From positions 1 to 44,342 of IMG/VR virus record IMGVR_UViG_2547132254_000004: a stretch of DNA of 44,342 nt; one strand, 5' to 3'. The position numbers and the translations under genes are program-made. Shown here in pieces: positions 24,692 to 44,342 of this stretch (its first letter is position 1; the number at the start of each line of letters is the position of its first letter). The stretch is from a virus (taxonomy: Duplodnaviria; Heunggongvirae; Uroviricota; Caudoviricetes). The notes below the pieces were generated by a model that did no database searches, was not told where the DNA came from, and was given only the letters and a program-made list of their open reading frames with translations.

Positions 24692-24731
24692 TCCTGGTTA
24701 AATTTCATTTTTCGCGGGTATAAAAAACGAT

Positions 24732-38043: not shown

Positions 38044-38334
38044 TTTCATTACTGCAAATGCCCCTGCGGGGGCATTTATGGAAACGTAATTGACTCAATA
38101 ATCGCCTGAAGGCGAGGGTTTTCTTTAACCAAAATTCAGCGCGGTGCAGCGCATATAACGTGGAGAACAAAATGTCATTTATTAAAACTTTTTCCGGGAA
38201 GCATTTTTATTATGACAGGATAAATAAAGACAACATCGATATTAACGATATCGCGGTTTCCCTTTCAAATATCTGTCGCTTTGCCGGCCATCTTTCACAC
38301 TTCTACAGCGTCGCCCAACATGCGGTGCTTTGCA

Positions 38335-39663
38335 CTGATGAATCCCCTAATGATTTTGGTAAAAATCATTAAGTTAAGGTGGATACACATCTTGTCATAT
38401 GATCAAATGGTTTCGCGAAAAATCAATAATCAGACAACAAGATGTGCGAACTCGATATTTTACACGACTCTCTTTACCAATTCTGCCCCGAATTACACTT
38501 AAAACGACTCAACAGCTTAACGTTGGCTTGCCACGCATTACTTGACTGTAAAACTCTCACTCTTACCGAACTTGGCCGTAACCTGCCAACCAAAGCGAGA
38601 ACAAAACATAACATCAAACGAATCGACCGATTGTTAGGTAATCGTCACCTCCACAAAGAGCGACTCGCTGTATACCGTTGGCATGCTAGCTTTATCTGTT
38701 CGGGCAATACGATGCCCATTGTACTTGTTGACTGGTCTGATATTCGTGAGCAAAAACGACTTATGGTATTGCGAGCTTCAGTCGCACTACACGGTCGTTC
38801 TGTTACTCTTTATGAGAAAGCGTTCCCGCTTTCAGAGCAATGTTCAAAGAAAGCTCATGACCAATTTCTAGCCGACCTTGCGAGCATTCTACCGAGTAAC
38901 ACCACACCGCTCATTGTCAGTGATGCTGGCTTTAAAGTGCCATGGTATAAATCCGTTGAGAAGCTGGGTTGGTACTGGTTAAGTCGAGTAAGAGGAAAAG
39001 TACAATATGCAGACCTAGGAGCGGAAAACTGGAAACCTATCAGCAACTTACATGATATGTCATCTAGTCACTCAAAGACTTTAGGCTATAAGAGGCTGAC
39101 TAAAAGCAATCCAATCTCATGCCAAATTCTATTGTATAAATCTCGCTCTAAAGGCCGAAAAAATCAGCGCTCGACACGGACTCATTGTCACCACCCGTCA
39201 CCTAAAATCTACTCAGCGTCGGCAAAGGAGCCATGGGTTCTAGCAACTAACTTACCTGTTGAAATTCGAACACCCAAACAACTTGTTAATATCTATTCGA
39301 AGCGAATGCAGATTGAAGAAACCTTCCGAGACTTGAAAAGTCCTGCCTACGGACTAGGCCTACGCCATAGCCGAACGAGCAGCTCAGAGCGTTTTGATAT
39401 CATGCTGCTAATCGCCCTGATGCTTCAACTAACATGTTGGCTTGCGGGCGTTCATGCTCAGAAACAAGGTTGGGACAAGCACTTCCAGGCTAACACAGTC
39501 AGAAATCGAAACGTACTCTCAACAGTTCGCTTAGGCATGGAAGTTTTGCGGCATTCTGGCTACACAATAACAAGGGAAGACTTACTCGTGGCTGCAACCC
39601 TACTAGCTCAAAATTTATTCACACATGGTTACGCTTTGGGGAAATTATGAGGGGATCTCTCAG
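38335..39663 (+). mobile_element. IS10 (IS4 family), 1329 bp, flanked by 9-bp target duplication TGCTTTGCA
   Basis: Ends CTGATGAATCCCCTAATGATTTTGG... and ...GGGGATCTCTCAG match IS10 termini; identical TGCTTTGCA at 38326-38334 and 39664-39672. Confidence 0.95.
38442..39650 (+). CDS. IS10 transposase
   Basis: 402 aa (MCELDILHDSLYQFCPELHLKRLNSLTLACHALLDCKTLTL...) matching the IS10/Tn10 transposase. Confidence 0.95.
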   Translation: MCELDILHDSLYQFCPELHLKRLNSLTLACHALLDCKTLTLTELGRNLPTKARTKHNIKRIDRLLGNRHLHKERLAVYRWHASFICSGNTMPIVLVDWSDIREQKRLMVLRASVALHGRSVTLYEKAFPLSEQCSKKAHDQFLADLASILPSNTTPLIVSDAGFKVPWYKSVEKLGWYWLSRVRGKVQYADLGAENWKPISNLHDMSSSHSKTLGYKRLTKSNPISCQILLYKSRSKGRKNQRSTRTHCHHPSPKIYSASAKEPWVLATNLPVEIRTPKQLVNIYSKRMQIEETFRDLKSPAYGLGLRHSRTSSSERFDIMLLIALMLQLTCWLAGVHAQKQGWDKHFQANTVRNRNVLSTVRLGMEVLRHSGYTITREDLLVAATLLAQNLFTHGYALGKL

Positions 39664-40036
39664 TGCTTTGCAGCCAGCTGGTACCGCAGGAATTTGCTTT
39701 TGAAGCGTTAATGCATGATGCAACAGAAGCGTATTGCCAGGACATCCCGGCTCCACTGAAACGCCTTCTTCCTGACTATAAACGGATGGAAGAAAAAATA
39801 GACGCCGTAATCCGTGAGAAATACGGGTTACCCCCGGTTATGAGTACACCCGTGAAATATGCCGATCTCATCATGCTGGCAACCGAACGCCGCGATCTCG
39901 GGCTTGATGATGGCTCTTTCTGGCCTGTGCTGGAAGGTATCCCGGCAACAGAGATGTTCAACGTGATTCCACTGGCTCCAGGCCATGCCTACGGGATGTT
40001 TATGGAACGCTTTAACGAATTATCGGAGTTACGCAA

Positions 40037-40399
40037 ATGCGCATAAATGTTTTCGAAATGGAAGGGTTTCTTCGCGGGAAATGTGTACCGCAAGATCTGA
40101 AAGTGAACGAAACAAATGCTGAGTACCTGGTACGTAAATTCGACGCGCTTGAAGCTAAATGTGCGGCACTGGAAAGCAAAATAATACCAGTGTCAGCTGA
40201 ACTGCCACCAGCAAATGAAAGTGTTCTGTTATTTGATGCTAACGGAGAAGGCTGGCTGATTGGCTGGCGTTCTCTCTGGTACACCTGGGGACAAAAAGAA
40301 ACCGGAGAATGGCAGTGGACATTTCAGGTCGGGGACCTTGAAAACGTCAATATCACTCACTGGGCAGTAATGCCGAAAGCACCAGAGACTAAGAAATGA
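40037..40399 (+). CDS. yfdS: YfdS-like prophage protein
   Basis: 120 aa with ATG start and GGAG RBS, immediately after the yfdR-like gene. Confidence 0.45.
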   Translation: MRINVFEMEGFLRGKCVPQDLKVNETNAEYLVRKFDALEAKCAALESKIIPVSAELPPANESVLLFDANGEGWLIGWRSLWYTWGQKETGEWQWTFQVGDLENVNITHWAVMPKAPETKK

Positions 40400-40611
40400 G
40401 CGTGATAAAAACTCATACAGGAATTGTTATCACCCGAGACGGTGAAAAGCGGATGAAATTACATTCCACTGAAACGTCCTGGGTTGCCGGACGTTGTGAA
40501 TCCTACGACAAAAAGACTGGTTACCGTTGGGGGGCACCTAACATGCGTCGCCGTCTGCTACTGGACAGCATCAGGCCAATAAAACAGGTAGCAACCAGGG
40601 AACAAAATTAA
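40396..40611 (+). CDS. Small hypothetical protein (YfdT-position)
   Basis: 71 aa overlapping the upstream stop by 4 nt. Confidence 0.35.
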   Translation: MSVIKTHTGIVITRDGEKRMKLHSTETSWVAGRCESYDKKTGYRWGAPNMRRRLLLDSIRPIKQVATREQN

Positions 40612-40658
40612 TTATCAGGACTGGAATTTGATATTACTGCCCGTGTGCAGCGGGCTAA

Positions 40659-40877
40659 GTGGAGAAACATATGCTGAACCTCGATTGTGTTCCAATCTCA
40701 ACTTATTGCAAAGAAACTGGCGAAACTCCTGAAGCAATAAACAAACGTGTACAGCGCGGTGTTTGGCGTGAAGGTGTTCAGGTTTTAAAGGTTGAAGGCG
40801 TTAAGGAGAGGTGGATTGATCTTAGTGAGGTTGCAAAATGGGCCAGACAAAACTGCTCAAACTACCGCGCGGCGTAA
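40659..40877 (+). CDS. Excisionase-like protein
   Basis: 72 aa immediately upstream of and overlapping the integrase start. Confidence 0.5.
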   Translation: MEKHMLNLDCVPISTYCKETGETPEAINKRVQRGVWREGVQVLKVEGVKERWIDLSEVAKWARQNCSNYRAA

Positions 40878-42010
40878 CAATCAGGAAACACCGCCTGGGC
40901 GAAACGATCAATATAACTTTCACCTATAAAGGAGTTAAATGTCGTGAGCCTCTTTCCAATCTGGAAGTAATACCAAAGAACATAAAATACGCCGAGCGCA
41001 CACTCGGCGAAATTCATAATAAGATCGAAAGGGGAACATTCATTTATGCGGAATATTTTCCCCGTTCTGCTCGTTTGAAAATTTTTGGTAATGCTGCTGC
41101 AGGCAAAACGGTAAAAATGTACCTGGACGAATACCTTGAAATCTGCGAAACGAGAAAACTTTCACCCTCTACGATTGGTGGTTATAAAAAATGCCGTAGT
41201 GCGTTAGCCTCACTCCACATTTGCCCTGCAAGTGAATTAACACCAGCAATCCTGAAAGCGTGGATTCAAAGCCAGAAAACGACCTTAAAAACAATTCGCA
41301 ACCAGTTATCTTTCCTGCGGTCAGCACTTGATGAAGCCGTAACCGATGGGGTACTTCAAATTAACCCCGTATCGTTGGTAACTGCTTCGCGCTACCAAAG
41401 TGATAAGTCAGAAGCAGAAAGCAGCTACGTGGTTGATCCGCTATCACCAGCAGAAGTTGATGCATTACTAGCAGCAGCCGGAAACAAACAATGGGAAAAT
41501 CTGTTCCGGTTCGCTATACATACAGGCCTGCGTAGTTCTGAATTATGTGCCCTTCGATGGCGTGATATCGACTTTGTTGGAAAAACTGCCCATGTCCAGA
41601 GCGCAAGTGTTGTCGGTGTTATCAAAGGGACAAAGACAAAAGCAGGTACTCGGAAAGTTGAACTGACAGAAGAGGCAATGTTGGCGCTGATAAATCAGAA
41701 GCCATTTACATTCATGAAGGATGCTACTGTCTTTGAAGATCCAAAGACCAATAAGCCTTGGGCAAGTGCTGATGCAATTAGGAAAAAAGCATGGGTGCCA
41801 ACATTGCGAAAAGCAGGTATTCGTTACAGAAACCCATATCAAACCAGGCATACATTCGCCACCAGCCATATCAGCCGAGGAGCAAACCTGTTTTGGCTTG
41901 CAGCTCAAATGGGGCATAAAGGGCCGGAGATGCTTTTCAGGCACTATGGTTCGTATCTTAAAGAGTATGATAACTTTACATCGATAAATCATTTGCATAA
42001 TCATAATTAA
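40838..42010 (+). CDS. Tyrosine integrase (lambda Int family) of the lambdoid prophage
   Basis: 390 aa with ATG start; C-terminal catalytic region with RHTFATSHISRGANLFWLAAQMGHK...LFRHY; reads toward the ssrA-derived attachment core. Confidence 0.85.
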   Translation: MGQTKLLKLPRGVTIRKHRLGETINITFTYKGVKCREPLSNLEVIPKNIKYAERTLGEIHNKIERGTFIYAEYFPRSARLKIFGNAAAGKTVKMYLDEYLEICETRKLSPSTIGGYKKCRSALASLHICPASELTPAILKAWIQSQKTTLKTIRNQLSFLRSALDEAVTDGVLQINPVSLVTASRYQSDKSEAESSYVVDPLSPAEVDALLAAAGNKQWENLFRFAIHTGLRSSELCALRWRDIDFVGKTAHVQSASVVGVIKGTKTKAGTRKVELTEEAMLALINQKPFTFMKDATVFEDPKTNKPWASADAIRKKAWVPTLRKAGIRYRNPYQTRHTFATSHISRGANLFWLAAQMGHKGPEMLFRHYGSYLKEYDNFTSINHLHNHN

Positions 42011-42020
42011 TATTTAATAA

Positions 42021-42047
42021 TCCCCGCATTTTTAAAATCGGGGATTT
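42021..42047 (+). terminator. Hairpin after the integrase gene (weak terminator)
   Basis: TCCCCG-N12-CGGGGA followed by TTT. Confidence 0.35.
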
Positions 42048-42051
42048 AAAG

Positions 42052-42348
42052 TTGATTACAATTACATTCGACAAACTAATCACCTACATATCTTCAGTTG
42101 GTACTTTCATTTCAGCAATTGCTGCATTATATGCAATATGGTTAACGATATTTCAAAGAAGGCTCTCTTATAAACCCAATTTAGTGATAGACACTTTAAA
42201 TGTCAAGATGAATGTTAACGATTTCAACGGTTTTCATGTTGATATCTTACAAGCCCCTACGCTTCCACAAACAAAATTTTCAAACATAGGATTGGGGGCG
42301 GCAATTTCACTTAGATATCATTGGGATTTTAATTATAAAAAAACATAA
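42052..42348 (+). CDS. Hypothetical membrane protein (AT-rich cargo between int and att), possible 5' part of a frameshifted gene
   Basis: 98 aa from TTG; N-terminal TM helix YISSVGTFISAIAALYAIWLTIF; ends at an A7 run. Confidence 0.4.
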   Translation: MITITFDKLITYISSVGTFISAIAALYAIWLTIFQRRLSYKPNLVIDTLNVKMNVNDFNGFHVDILQAPTLPQTKFSNIGLGAAISLRYHWDFNYKKT

Positions 42349-42362
42349 ATCTATACTTAGAG

Positions 42363-42830
42363 TTGTTTTCGAAAAAATTCAAAAAAGAAGATAAATCTTT
42401 TACAACCGACTCCCAGTATGGAATGTTCAAAATAATAAAAGAAAGAAAAGTATATATGTACAATACTTTATCGACACCTTACGATATTGATTTTTCGTTA
42501 CCATATAGTATAGATAAGAAGTCAAAAAACATTTTTGTACCAACCGCGGCAATTGATATTCTATTGAATATAGCATATCTTTCACATAGACTTAAATTAG
42601 TCGGTTCTTCATCATTCACTGGTCCAAAATTAATTATTGAATATCAAGATATAGAGGGTAAAACTAAAAAAGTCACTTGGCAAACAAAATTGGAACGTGG
42701 AGTGGCACGTTTCAGTGGTGATAATATGGAGGCAGATTTTGCACTACGGTTTACACCTGTACCAGAGAAATGGACTACAAAAGGTCTAGAGAAGATACGC
42801 AAAAGCGCCGCAAACGCCATGTTCAGATAA
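42363..42830 (+). CDS. Hypothetical protein, possible 3' part of the same frameshifted gene
   Basis: 155 aa from TTG; frame is open from 42339; one extra A in the A7 run at 42337-42343 would fuse it to the upstream ORF. Confidence 0.4.
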   Translation: MFSKKFKKEDKSFTTDSQYGMFKIIKERKVYMYNTLSTPYDIDFSLPYSIDKKSKNIFVPTAAIDILLNIAYLSHRLKLVGSSSFTGPKLIIEYQDIEGKTKKVTWQTKLERGVARFSGDNMEADFALRFTPVPEKWTTKGLEKIRKSAANAMFR

Positions 42831-42867
42831 ATATATAATTAAAACAACAGGTTAATATTTTTCAGAC

Positions 42868-42895
42868 ACGGGTTCAACTCCCGCCAGCTCCACCA
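42868..42895 (+). other. ssrA: Prophage attachment core: 3'-terminal ~28 nt of ssrA (tmRNA) ending CCA
   Basis: ACGGGTTCAACTCCCGCCAGCTCCACCA matches the E. coli tmRNA 3' end as I recall it; sequence to the left is phage cargo, not the tmRNA body. Confidence 0.65.
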
Positions 42896-42942
42896 AAATT
42901 CTCCATCGGTGATTACCAGAGTCATCCGATGAAGTCCTAAGA

Positions 42943-42975
42943 GCCCGCACGGCGCAAGCCCTGCGGGCTTTTTTG
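42943..42975 (+). terminator. Rho-independent terminator (native ssrA terminator)
   Basis: GCCCGCA-N12-TGCGGGC followed by TTTTTT. Confidence 0.6.
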
Positions 42976-43028
42976 TGCCCTCAATTTGTCCCGCGAAGTC
43001 CGAAGAAAACTAATTAAATCCGATCCTT

Positions 43029-43082
43029 TTAGGCACCTTGTTAGGCACCTCATAAAGCTTTATTGTTTTTTGAGGTGCCTAA
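43029..43082. repeat. Three copies of TTAGGCACC (two direct, one inverted) upstream of the intA-like gene
   Basis: 43029-43037, 43041-43049 direct; 43074-43082 inverted (GGTGCCTAA); possible integrase arm-type or regulator binding sites. Confidence 0.4.
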
Positions 43083-43100
43083 AACTATGGAAACCCGGCA

Positions 43101-44342
43101 ATGGCAAGACAAACCAAACCTCTATCCGTTAAAGAAATAGAATCAGCCAAACCCAAGGAGGCGGACTACGTTCTCTATGATGGCGATGGCCTTGAGCTAC
43201 TCATTAAATCCAGCGGGAGTAAAATCTGGCAGTTTCGCTACATTCGCCCTGTCACCAAGAAACGAGCAAAGAAGAGCATAGGCTCCTACCCGTCAGTTAC
43301 CCTTGCCGATGCCAGAAACTACCGTGCAGAGTCCCGCTCACTACTGGCTAAACAGATCGATCCGCAGGAACATCAGCAAGAACAATTGCGCAGTTCGCTG
43401 GAAGCCAAAACCAACACTTTCCAACTCGTAGCTGAACGTTGGTGGAATGTGAAGAAAGCCAGTGTGACAGAGGACTATGCGGAAGATATCTGGCGCTCTC
43501 TTGAAAGAGACGTCTTTCCTGCGATTGGCGACGTTAGCGTTACAGATATTAAAGCTCATACACTGGTTCAGGCCGTACAACCGGTTCAGGCCAGAGGAGC
43601 ACTGGAAACTGTTCGTCGCCTGTGCCAACGTATTAATGAGGTCATGATCTATGCCCAGAACACAGGGCTGATTGATGCTGTTCCCAGCGTTAATATCGGT
43701 AAAGCCTTCGAGAAGCCTCAGAAAAAGAACATGCCCAGCATTCGACCGGATCAGCTACCTCAGTTAATGCAGACGATGCGAACAGCCAGCATTAGCCTTT
43801 CCACACGCTGCCTGTTCATGTGGCAACTTCTTACTATTACCCGCCCTGCCGAAGCGGCTGAAGCTCTCTGGGAAGAGGTAGACATAGAAGCGCGAGAGTG
43901 GAAGATTCCTGCAGCACGCATGAAAATGAACCGCGACCATACTGTTCCATTGTCAGATGAAGCAATTGCGATACTAGAGATGATGAAGCCGTTAAGTGGA
44001 AATCGAGAATTTATCTTTCCCAGCCGCATCAAGCCAAACCAGCCGATGAACAGTCAGACCGTAAACGCATCGCTAAAACGCGCAGGTTTTGGTGGGGTGC
44101 TCGTTTCACACGGCCTGCGATCTATCGCCAGTACAGCCCTTAATGAGCAGGGATTTCCACCTGATGTTATTGAGGCTGCACTTGCTCATGTGGATAAGAA
44201 TGAGGTTCGTCGTGCGTATAACCGTAGTGATTATCTTGAGCAGCGACGGCCTATGATGCAGTGGTGGGCTGATTTTGTGATGGCTGCAGATCACGGTAGT
44301 ATGATTGAAGGAGGGATAAAGGCAATGCGGTTAGTTGGATGA
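43101..44342 (+). CDS. intA: P4-family tyrosine integrase, CP4-57 IntA-like
   Basis: 413 aa (MARQTKPL...LYDGDGLELLIKSSGSKIWQFRY...), same length and position relative to ssrA as E. coli K-12 IntA; catalytic HGLRSIASTALNEQG...AHVDKNEVRRAYNRSDY. Confidence 0.85.
   Translation: MARQTKPLSVKEIESAKPKEADYVLYDGDGLELLIKSSGSKIWQFRYIRPVTKKRAKKSIGSYPSVTLADARNYRAESRSLLAKQIDPQEHQQEQLRSSLEAKTNTFQLVAERWWNVKKASVTEDYAEDIWRSLERDVFPAIGDVSVTDIKAHTLVQAVQPVQARGALETVRRLCQRINEVMIYAQNTGLIDAVPSVNIGKAFEKPQKKNMPSIRPDQLPQLMQTMRTASISLSTRCLFMWQLLTITRPAEAAEALWEEVDIEAREWKIPAARMKMNRDHTVPLSDEAIAILEMMKPLSGNREFIFPSRIKPNQPMNSQTVNASLKRAGFGGVLVSHGLRSIASTALNEQGFPPDVIEAALAHVDKNEVRRAYNRSDYLEQRRPMMQWWADFVMAADHGSMIEGGIKAMRLVG

What the first reader, a model, noticed from the sequence alone, without database searches (positions are those of the whole stretch)
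42011..42860. AT-rich membrane-protein cargo between int and the attachment core, split at an A7 run
Two TTG-initiated ORFs fill the space between the integrase and the ssrA-derived core, a typical conversion or defence cargo position. The first has an N-terminal TM helix and ends at AAAAAAA (42337-42343); the second ORF's frame is open from 42339, so one extra A would fuse them into a ~260-aa protein. I recognise neither part.
Basis: partly seen in the sequence, partly recalled or inferred. Interest (0 to 1): 0.58.

Follow-up and report, generated by a model that had tools for sequence, protein, structure and literature searches.

The report
Frameshifted prophage membrane gene, likely anti-phage
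The two small ORFs are one 259-codon prophage gene for a membrane-anchored protein of unknown function, probably anti-phage, that is broken here by the loss of one A from an A8 run, a lesion seen repeatedly in other E. coli strains.

Summary
ORF1 (42052-42348) and ORF2 (42363-42830, frame open from 42339) meet at an A7 run (42337-42343). One extra A fuses them into 259 aa.

All 50 complete E. coli genomes that carry this gene have A8 and one 780-nt CDS. Every homologue down to about 23% identity is a single 240-280 aa protein. The window therefore holds a very recent -1 frameshift allele. The surrounding 3.2 kb is otherwise identical to an intact copy.

The same A8->A7 lesion occurs on at least three SNP haplotypes in other assemblies, and other A-tract indels also occur. 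The tract is a recurrent mutation site, or a recurrent error site.

The protein has a highly conserved N-terminal TM helix and a basic alpha/beta domain with no detectable known fold. It matches phrog_7259 (unknown function) and nothing in Pfam, NCBIfam or PADLOC.

It always sits between the integrase and the ssrA core of related prophages, and it survives intact in about 2-kb prophage remnants. Distant relatives lie between Hachiman and Tin, next to AbiTii, or between PDC-M68B and AbiD. A 2026 machine-learning screen lists the intact protein as a predicted novel defence gene.

It is an inactivated copy of a candidate single-gene defence or exclusion protein. That function is untested.

The parts
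42052..42830 (+). Frameshift-disrupted copy (779 nt) of a 780-nt, 259-codon gene for a single-pass membrane protein of the phrog_7259 family. The intact form is RefSeq 'hypothetical protein', e.g. WP_001407079.1 or WP_127490476.1.
   Evidence: 50/50 complete E. coli genomes have a single 780-nt CDS here. phrog_7259 matches at E=1.4e-86 over residues 7-259. Homologues are all single proteins of about 240-280 aa.
42052..42348 (+). 5' segment (ORF1, 98 aa). It has the TTG start, TM helix, the NIGLGAA motif and W91. It ends at a premature TAA after the shifted codon ACA. It holds 27 of the 30 invariant columns of the close family.
   Evidence: The TTG start is annotated in RefSeq and conserved in enterobacterial homologues.
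42337..42343 (+). A7 homopolymer, which is A8 in intact alleles (codons Lys96-Lys97-Asn98). This is the site of the -1 frameshift.
   Evidence: A8 is present only in the E. coli clade of the family.
42339..42830 (+). 3' segment in the -1 frame (residues 97-259 of the intact protein). It has no conserved start of its own.
   Evidence: dN/dS is 0.22-0.28 for this part between clade members.
42019..42046 (+). Stem-loop between the int stop codon and the TTG start. Its 3' arm contains the Shine-Dalgarno GGGGA (42040-42044).
   Evidence: Folding energy is -15.6 kcal/mol, z=-3.5, with 0 of 200 shuffles folding as well. The stem-loop is kept in 8 homologous loci, including phage LLS, with changes on both sides in 5 of 10 pairs.
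40838..42010 (+). Prophage tyrosine integrase (390 aa, Arm-DNA-bind_2 plus Phage_integrase), directly upstream of the cargo gene.
42871..42895 (+). 3' end of ssrA (tmRNA). This is the attachment core at the right prophage junction, followed by the ssrA terminator (42956-42970).
   Evidence: The same core lies about 50 bp after the homologue in 13 other loci.

Best explanation
Shown: the region holds one gene, not two. It encodes a 259-aa protein with an N-terminal transmembrane anchor and a basic domain of about 220 aa with no recognisable fold. The gene is cargo between the integrase and attP of ssrA-integrating temperate phages. In this window it is inactivated by loss of one A from an A8 tract (A8->A7). 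That gives a 98-aa N-terminal fragment and an untranslatable 3' part. The event is very recent. The same lesion recurs on different allelic backgrounds, so the tract is a mutational weak point.

Inferred: the intact protein is a prophage-borne, single-gene anti-phage protein of the abortive-infection or superinfection-exclusion type. Positive charges follow the TM helix, which suggests it is tethered to the inner membrane with its bulk in the cytoplasm. A TTG start and a Shine-Dalgarno-sequestering hairpin probably keep its level low. Recurrent loss would fit a costly or autotoxic membrane effector. It would also fit plain neutral decay at an A8 hot spot.
For: - Single gene: all 50 complete E. 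coli genomes have A8 and one 780-nt CDS. All 7 IMG/VR and metagenome matches have A8. The 21 close and 714 distant representatives are all single proteins of about 240-280 aa aligned from the N terminus. dN/dS is about 0.2 in both halves.
- Recent event: window 39663-42896 differs from strain R12 only at the tract.
- Recurrence: A7 is found on three SNP haplotypes. There is also an A6->A5 change in a second tract, a double shift, and an 11-bp deletion.
- Not a one-off read error: independent assemblies of SRR063736 and SRR11241493 are 100% identical to the window, including A7. Two NCBI draft genomes also carry A7.
- Architecture: TM helix 3-39, model pLDDT 79.7 and pTM 0.71. K+R is 37 against D+E 23, and an RR..K cluster follows the TM.
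- Cargo and defence context: the int-gene-core synteny holds in phage LLS, 11 IMG/VR loci, Klebsiella and others. The gene is intact in about 2.2-kb remnants that keep only an int stub. Neighbours of other family members are AbiTii; HamA/HamB plus Tin; and PDC-M68B plus AbiD.
- Published prediction: WP_127490476.1 is listed as 'Predicted novel defense gene', mean log-odds 8.59 against a strict cut-off of 4, in Table S10 of PMC13092281.
Against: - No experiment links this family to phage resistance. It is absent from the screened and validated sets of PMC13092281 as far as the stored tables show.
- There is no sequence or fold similarity to any known defence protein.
- The defence-neighbour evidence rests on three loci.
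- The machine-learning score itself uses neighbouring integrases and defence genes, so it is not independent of context.
- Topology is inferred only from the positive-inside rule.
- The high lysine content may simply reflect the AT-rich composition.
- A homopolymer sequencing error in the window cannot be excluded without reads, and none of the 50 complete genomes has A7.
Confidence: 0.72

Rival explanations
1. The A7 is a homopolymer sequencing or assembly error. The strain really carries the intact A8 gene and nothing is broken.
For: The difference is one base in an 8-nt homopolymer, the classic error site for 454, Ion Torrent and Nanopore data. None of the 50 complete RefSeq genomes has A7. 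SRR063736 is an early accession whose platform I could not determine. P0001 and L020 carry several -1 changes in neighbouring A tracts, which looks like long-read error.
Against: A7 is reproduced in separate assemblies of SRR063736 and SRR11241493, both 100% identical to the window, and in two NCBI drafts and several other runs on other haplotypes. About 30 kb of the window aligned to strain R12 shows only one other homopolymer indel, and that one is intergenic. The assembly is therefore not error-ridden.
Confidence: 0.15
2. The A tract is a contingency (phase-variation) switch. Slipped-strand mispairing turns a costly membrane defence protein ON (A8) and OFF (A7) reversibly within populations.
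For: The tract lies inside the ORF. A7 and A8 both occur on at least three closely related haplotypes, which implies repeated independent changes. SNP 306 is only 13 bp from the tract, so recombination is an unlikely explanation. Additional A-tract indels occur in the same 50-bp stretch. The low-expression signals of a TTG start and a hidden Shine-Dalgarno suggest a dose-sensitive product.
Against: Eight bases is short for a bacterial contingency tract. No A9 allele was seen. The tract is not conserved: L021 has AAAAAACAC, and Enterobacter, Cedecea and LLS homologues have no run. It is the sort of run expected in a 32% G+C gene. OFF alleles are a small minority and absent from all 50 complete genomes. 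Reversion has not been shown.
Confidence: 0.1
3. This is programmed recoding. The A7 allele is the functional form and yields a short product and a full-length product by -1 ribosomal frameshifting or transcriptional slippage on the A run.
For: A -1 slip of tRNA-Lys on AAA AAA, or addition of one A by RNA polymerase, would regenerate exactly the wild-type sequence ...YKKNIN... (sequence). A stop codon lies two codons downstream. Lys codons in A runs are known to be shift-prone in E. coli (established knowledge of dnaX and IS elements).
Against: The two-frame arrangement is not conserved. It is the minority allele, and all homologues are single ORFs. The 0-frame heptamer is U AAA AAA, not a canonical X XXY YYZ. 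No downstream stimulatory structure was looked for or seen. At most this predicts leaky suppression of a mutant allele.
Confidence: 0.03
4. The intact protein is not a defence factor. It would instead serve the phage or host in another way, for example lysogenic conversion of the envelope, control of integration or excision, or lysis timing.
For: The position next to int and attP is also where conversion genes sit in other temperate phages (established knowledge, e.g. O-antigen modification cassettes). There is no homology to any defence protein. The Serratia relative lies inside the early-left operon upstream of xis-int. The conserved hairpin directly after int could tie its expression to int transcription.
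Against: The gene is kept intact in remnants that have lost int and every other phage gene. That argues against a role in the phage's own cycle. Distant members sit in chromosomal defence islands with no prophage present. There are no enzyme-like motifs or glycosyltransferase or acyltransferase similarity.
Confidence: 0.25
5. These are two independent small genes, as the ORF list suggests.
For: Both ORFs have a possible TTG start.
Against: No homologue is split at this point by design. The ORF2 start is not conserved and has no independent support. One base restores a family-wide full-length protein.
Confidence: 0.01

Closest known systems
phrog_7259 / RefSeq 'hypothetical protein' WP_001407079.1, WP_127490476.1, WP_136752589.1; gene 31 of Escherichia phage LLS (PQ299149.1)
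   Same: It is the same gene. The fused translation is identical to a 259-aa protein seen on 125 contigs and matches phrog_7259 end to end. LLS gene 31 (27% identity) has the same position between int and attP in a tmRNA fragment. WP_127490476.1 is a 'predicted novel defense gene' in PMC13092281 Table S10.
   Different: The window copy lacks one A and is out of frame. None of these entries has a known function, and the LLS paper does not discuss gene 31.
Membrane-anchored single-protein abortive-infection factors: lactococcal AbiP and S. aureus prophage PdpSau (PMC10127798)
   Same: The architecture and setting match. Both have one gene of about 250-280 aa, an N-terminal membrane helix and a positively charged cytoplasmic domain. 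PdpSau is carried as an accessory gene at a prophage end. The protein here has TM 16-34, an RR..K cluster after the helix, a net charge of about +14 and an int-attP cargo site.
Superinfection-exclusion membrane proteins of temperate phages (P22 SieA, HK97 gp15, lactococcal Sie2009; recalled from the literature, not tested here)
   Same: They are small prophage-expressed inner-membrane proteins encoded as morons near the lysogeny module, and they protect the lysogen.
   Different: Those proteins are mostly smaller or multi-pass and act on DNA entry from the periplasmic side. This one has a large, probably cytoplasmic, domain. It also occurs in chromosomal defence islands away from prophages.
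Homopolymer-tract contingency loci (slipped-strand phase variation, as in Haemophilus, Neisseria and Campylobacter surface and restriction genes; established knowledge)
   Same: There is an intragenic mononucleotide run whose length differs by one between closely related strains and decides whether the protein is made.
   Different: The tract is only 8 nt, is not conserved among orthologues, has a rare OFF state, and has no demonstrated reversibility.

Membership tests
phrog_7259 (phage protein family of unknown function) | Significant full-length match to the family profile | tested here: met
   E=1.4e-86, residues 7-259 against profile 6-270 of 277, using the one-A-restored translation.
Any curated Pfam, NCBIfam or PADLOC family | Match above the curated or E-value threshold, for the protein or for 48 diverse relatives | tested here: not met
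   The protein has no Pfam or PADLOC hit. The 48 members of alignment A3 have no consistent hit in Pfam, PADLOC or NCBIfam. The PDB sequence profile search gives nothing below E=0.3.
Programmed frameshift or recoding gene | The two-frame arrangement is conserved among homologues | tested here: not met
   50/50 complete genomes and all homologues are single ORFs.
Programmed frameshift or recoding gene | Canonical slippery heptamer X XXY YYZ in the zero frame | tested here: not met
   The zero-frame codons are TAT AAA AAA ACA TAA, so the heptamer is U AAA AAA.
Phase-variable contingency locus | Intragenic repeat tract with length polymorphism between close relatives | tested here: met
   A7 and A8 both occur on each of at least three haplotypes, and neighbouring tracts carry further indels.
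Phase-variable contingency locus | Tract conserved or longer than composition predicts across orthologues | tested here: not met
   A8 occurs only in the E. coli clade. L021, Enterobacter, Cedecea and LLS have interrupted runs or none. The window holds 18 other A/T runs of at least 7 nt.
Phase-variable contingency locus | High-frequency reversible switching | not testable with these tools
   This needs read-level or culture data.
Prophage int-attP cargo (moron) | Conserved position between integrase and attachment core, with composition unlike the phage backbone | tested here: met
   The same order is seen in LLS, 11 IMG/VR loci, Klebsiella and others. G+C is 32% against 44% for int and 49% for the window.
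Anti-phage defence gene | Recurrent co-location with known defence genes | tested here: met
   AbiTii is upstream in Cedecea. One member lies between Hachiman HamA/HamB and Tin. Another lies between PDC-M68B and AbiD. Only three informative non-prophage loci were available.
Anti-phage defence gene | Reduces phage plating or burst when expressed | not testable with these tools
   The gene is predicted only (PMC13092281 Table S10, log-odds 8.59). It was not found among the screened or validated systems.
AbiP / PdpSau-type membrane-anchored Abi | N-terminal TM helix plus positively charged cytoplasmic domain | tested here: inconclusive
   The TM helix and net positive charge are present. The cytoplasmic orientation is inferred from the positive-inside rule alone.
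AbiP / PdpSau-type membrane-anchored Abi | Sequence or structural homology, including the OB-fold nucleic-acid-binding domain | tested here: not met

The most novel reading that the evidence does not exclude
The family would be a new single-gene anti-phage system: a membrane-anchored sensor and effector with a previously unseen fold. In E. coli, expression of this costly protein would be toggled by slippage in the A8 tract, making it a phase-variable prophage defence gene. The window would then show the OFF state.
Probability: 0.08. Interest if true: 0.7.

Novelty: new member of a known kind. Interest (0 to 1): 0.4.

Why it matters
The frameshift in this window is an ordinary pseudogenising lesion. 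The gene it hits is more useful. It is a compact, widespread family (714 representatives at 50% identity) with no annotation and no recognisable fold. Its transmembrane helix is unusually conserved. It has a fixed cargo slot in ssrA-integrating phages, is repeatedly kept when the rest of the prophage is lost, and sits among known defence genes. This makes it a well-defined and cheap candidate for a new single-protein phage-defence or exclusion mechanism. Natural A7 alleles provide ready-made null controls. The recurrent breakage gives a handle on whether such prophage cargo is costly to keep.

Tried and rejected
- Pfam, PADLOC and NCBIfam gave nothing for the protein or for 48 diverse relatives.
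- The PDB sequence profile search gave nothing.
- AFDB50 was unavailable.
P0002 (89% identical) was used instead.
- The scan of species-representative genomes found no relative. The wide alignment was too diverse for locus searching.
- Literature: accession and PHROG identifiers are not in any main text. The phage LLS paper says nothing on gene 31. Brenes & Laub 2025 on E. coli prophage defence is not in the library, so I could not check whether it tested this gene.
- I considered a second TM helix at residues 161-180 (mean Kyte-Doolittle 1.43) and rejected it. It is below the usual threshold and is modelled as a buried helix.
- I considered a Rossmann-type GxGxxG reading of NIGLGAA and rejected it. 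The spacing and the beta-hairpin context do not fit.
- I considered that recombination spread one A7 allele and rejected it. SNP 306 lies 13 bp from the tract and differs between A7 haplotypes.

Full report
**1. The observation**

The sequence is as described.
- ORF1 runs from TTG 42052 to TAA 42346-42348 (98 aa).
- ORF2 is listed from TTG 42363 to 42830 (155 aa). Its frame is open from 42339, because 42336-42338 is TAA.
- The run 42337-42343 is seven A, flanked by T and C.
- Adding one A gives an uninterrupted 259-codon ORF.
- The stretch is 32% G+C, against 44% for the integrase gene and 49% for the window.
- The integrase (40838-42010) lies directly upstream.
- The last 25 nt of ssrA are at 42871-42895, with a partial Rfam tmRNA match at 42820-42895.
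- The ssrA terminator (42956-42970) and a second integrase (43101-44342) follow.

**2. One gene, broken by one base**

Fifty of 5,426 complete E. coli genomes contain this sequence. In every one the match spans 780 nt rather than 779, and it lies under a single 'hypothetical protein' CDS. Three were read directly. Each has TATAAAAAAAAC (A8) and a TTG-initiated 259-aa product.

The restored translation of the window is identical to a protein recorded on 125 contigs.

Only 21 clusters in a collection of 5.8 billion proteins are close relatives. They come from E. coli, Enterobacter, Klebsiella, Cedecea and Citrobacter. All full-length members are single proteins of 246-269 aa. A profile search of 1.84 billion representatives finds 714 more distant members at E<1e-3. 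These are again about 240-280 aa and align from the N terminus.

dN/dS between clade members is 0.14-0.21 for codons 1-98 and 0.22-0.28 for the remainder. Both pieces have therefore evolved as coding sequence of one gene. The 'TTG start' of ORF2 is not a real start.

**3. How recent, and how real**

Window 39663-42896 is identical to strain R12 except for the missing A. This is a very recent change, not a decayed remnant.

About 30 kb of the window aligns to R12. In that length there is only one other homopolymer indel, A6 against A7 at 24722, and it is intergenic. The assembly is therefore not riddled with homopolymer errors.

The exact 98-aa truncated product exists in three independent read-set assemblies.
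- The SRR063736 contig is 100% identical to window 39639-44342. It begins at the IS10 junction, so it is the same strain.
- The SRR11241493 contig is 100% identical to window 40345-42888.

I could not determine the sequencing platforms. A homopolymer error in the window therefore remains possible, at about 15%.

**4. The lesion recurs**

Twelve contigs carry the 135-aa 3' ORF that gene callers produce from split alleles. Aligning them to an A8 reference shows A8->A7 on three SNP backgrounds:
- G151/C306: the window, L010, L011 and L012.
- A151/T306: L013 and L014 (two NCBI drafts), plus L016 and L018.
- A151/C306/A321: L015.

SNP 306 is 13 bp from the tract. Repeated mutation, or repeated error, is therefore more likely than recombination.

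Other disruptions cluster in the same 50 bp:
- A6->A5 in the next tract (L019).
- A -1 change in each of two tracts (L020).
- An 11-bp deletion (L017).
- An in-frame triple-deletion variant (P0001, on a 2.2-Mb contig). This one looks like long-read error.

A8 alleles dominate: 50/50 complete genomes, 6/6 IMG/VR matches and 1/1 metagenome match.

The tract is not conserved. A relative with 89% amino-acid identity has AAAAAACAC, and the Enterobacter, Cedecea and LLS homologues have no run.

I read this as recurrent inactivation at a modest mutational hot spot in a very AT-rich gene. A true contingency switch is possible but weakly supported. Programmed frameshifting is not supported. A -1 slip on AAA AAA, or addition of an A during transcription, would restore the wild-type sequence, so the allele may be slightly leaky. 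That last point is inference.

**5. The protein**

AlphaFold2 on a 20-sequence alignment (first row 89% identical to the window protein) gives pLDDT 79.7 and pTM 0.71. The model has these elements:
- A helix at residues 3-39.
- Three successive beta-meander-plus-helix units, with helices at 95-110, 165-180 and 240-258.

The frameshift falls at the start of helix 95-110.

The hydrophobic core is residues 16-34. The N-tail has no net charge, whereas RR..K follows the helix. The protein has 37 K+R against 23 D+E. By the positive-inside rule the bulk is cytoplasmic, which is inference only.

Conservation is unusual. 27 of the 30 invariant columns lie in residues 8-91. This covers most of the TM helix, the Q35-R-R..Y-K-P exit and an N78-I-G-L-G-A-A hairpin. 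Q35, N78, G80 and A84 stay invariant at about 20% identity.

No Pfam, NCBIfam or PADLOC family matches the protein or 48 diverse relatives. phrog_7259 (unknown function) matches end to end. No solved or viral predicted structure matches convincingly.

**6. Context**

The order integrase, this gene, then the ssrA core about 50 bp later is kept in many loci:
- Phage LLS, a viable temperate phage whose attP is annotated in a tmRNA fragment.
- Eleven IMG/VR prophages.
- Klebsiella and other enterobacterial contigs.

In Enterobacter hormaechei, Cedecea neteri and one IMG/VR contig, the whole prophage has shrunk to about 2.2 kb. What remains is ssrA, one foreign gene, a stub of the integrase (residues about 316-388), an intact homologue, and in most of them a second ssrA core. 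The gene is kept when everything else is lost.

Where family members lie outside prophage ends, their neighbours are defence genes:
- AbiTii in Cedecea.
- Hachiman HamA/HamB upstream and Tin downstream (P0198).
- PDC-M68B upstream and AbiD downstream (P0061).

A Serratia relative sits just upstream of xis-int inside a lambdoid prophage.

The DefensePredictor study lists WP_127490476.1, the intact 259-aa protein of the ST131-type haplotype, among uncharacterised 'predicted novel defense genes'. Its mean log-odds is 8.59 against a strict cut-off of 4. I found it neither in the screened units nor, by motif, among the validated proteins. That score partly reflects the same neighbourhood signals, so it is not independent of context.

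**7. Mechanism proposed**

Shown: the protein is a membrane-anchored prophage cargo protein under purifying selection. In this window it is a null or nearly null allele.

Inferred, at about 50-55%: it is a single-protein defence or exclusion factor.

The closest analogues by architecture are lactococcal AbiP and S. aureus PdpSau. Both have an N-terminal membrane helix and a basic cytoplasmic domain, and both cause abortive infection. PdpSau is prophage-borne. No homology to either was detected, so this is a 'works like' statement and not a membership claim.

The conserved TTG start and the conserved stem-loop at 42019-42046 suggest tight limits on expression, as would suit a toxic effector. 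The stem-loop pairs the Shine-Dalgarno GGGGA with CCCC and shows changes on both sides in 5 of 10 pairs across eight loci. The hairpin may equally be the 3' end or stability element of the int transcript.

**8. Verdict**

The window copy is an ordinary frameshift allele. The family behind it is uncharacterised, fairly widespread, and a credible, already computationally flagged, defence candidate. Interest is moderate.

Noticed in passing
window 38335-39663: A complete IS10 (1,329 bp; ends CTGATGAATCCCC... and ...GGGGATCTCTCAG; 402-aa transposase at 38442-39650) is inserted in the prophage yfdR-like 5'-deoxynucleotidase gene. It has a 9-bp target duplication, TGCTTTGCA (38326-38334 and 39664-39672). 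This is a second disruptive event in the same prophage arm. The name IS10 is from memory of the end sequences and the transposase.
   Followed up: partly
window 42019-42046: A conserved stem-loop lies directly after the int stop codon, and its 3' arm holds the Shine-Dalgarno of the cargo gene. It is kept with compensatory changes in E. coli, Enterobacter, Cedecea and phage LLS. It could be a translational mask or the int transcript's 3' end element.
   Followed up: partly
window 42871-44342: There are tandem elements at ssrA. The prophage's right junction (ssrA 3' core and terminator) is followed at once by a second tyrosine integrase (43101-44342; Arm-DNA-bind_3, Phage_int_M and Phage_integrase in the identical L010 gene). 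This resembles the CP4-57 IntA arrangement of K-12. Some relatives (R12, AZ146) have glaH/csiD there instead.
   Followed up: partly
L007/L009 4260-6850; L006 4137-6804; L029: In Enterobacter hormaechei, Cedecea neteri and an IMG/VR contig there are prophage remnants of about 2.2 kb. They contain ssrA, one foreign gene (AbiTii or an unknown 272-aa protein), an integrase stub and an intact cargo homologue. A second ssrA core closes the remnant in L007, L009 and L029; none was found after the homologue in the Cedecea locus L006. Both prophage-end cargo genes seem to have been kept while the phage was deleted.
   Followed up: partly
window 24722: An A6 run here is A7 in strain R12. By the R12 annotation it lies in the intergenic space between the small terminase and HNH endonuclease genes. 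It is the only other homopolymer indel in about 30 kb of alignment.
   Followed up: no
P0001 (WP_407241446.1) and L020, relative to window 42337-42390: Some variants have -1 changes in two or three neighbouring A tracts. In P0001 they sum to -3 and leave a 13-residue out-of-frame patch in an otherwise normal 258-aa protein. This is probably long-read homopolymer error that became the representative of a 257-member cluster.
   Followed up: partly
L033 7978-8769: A P2 Tin-like protein (PADLOC Tin, E=7e-69) lies directly downstream of a distant family member and a Hachiman system, on a 314-kb metagenome contig. It is a compact defence island.
   Followed up: no
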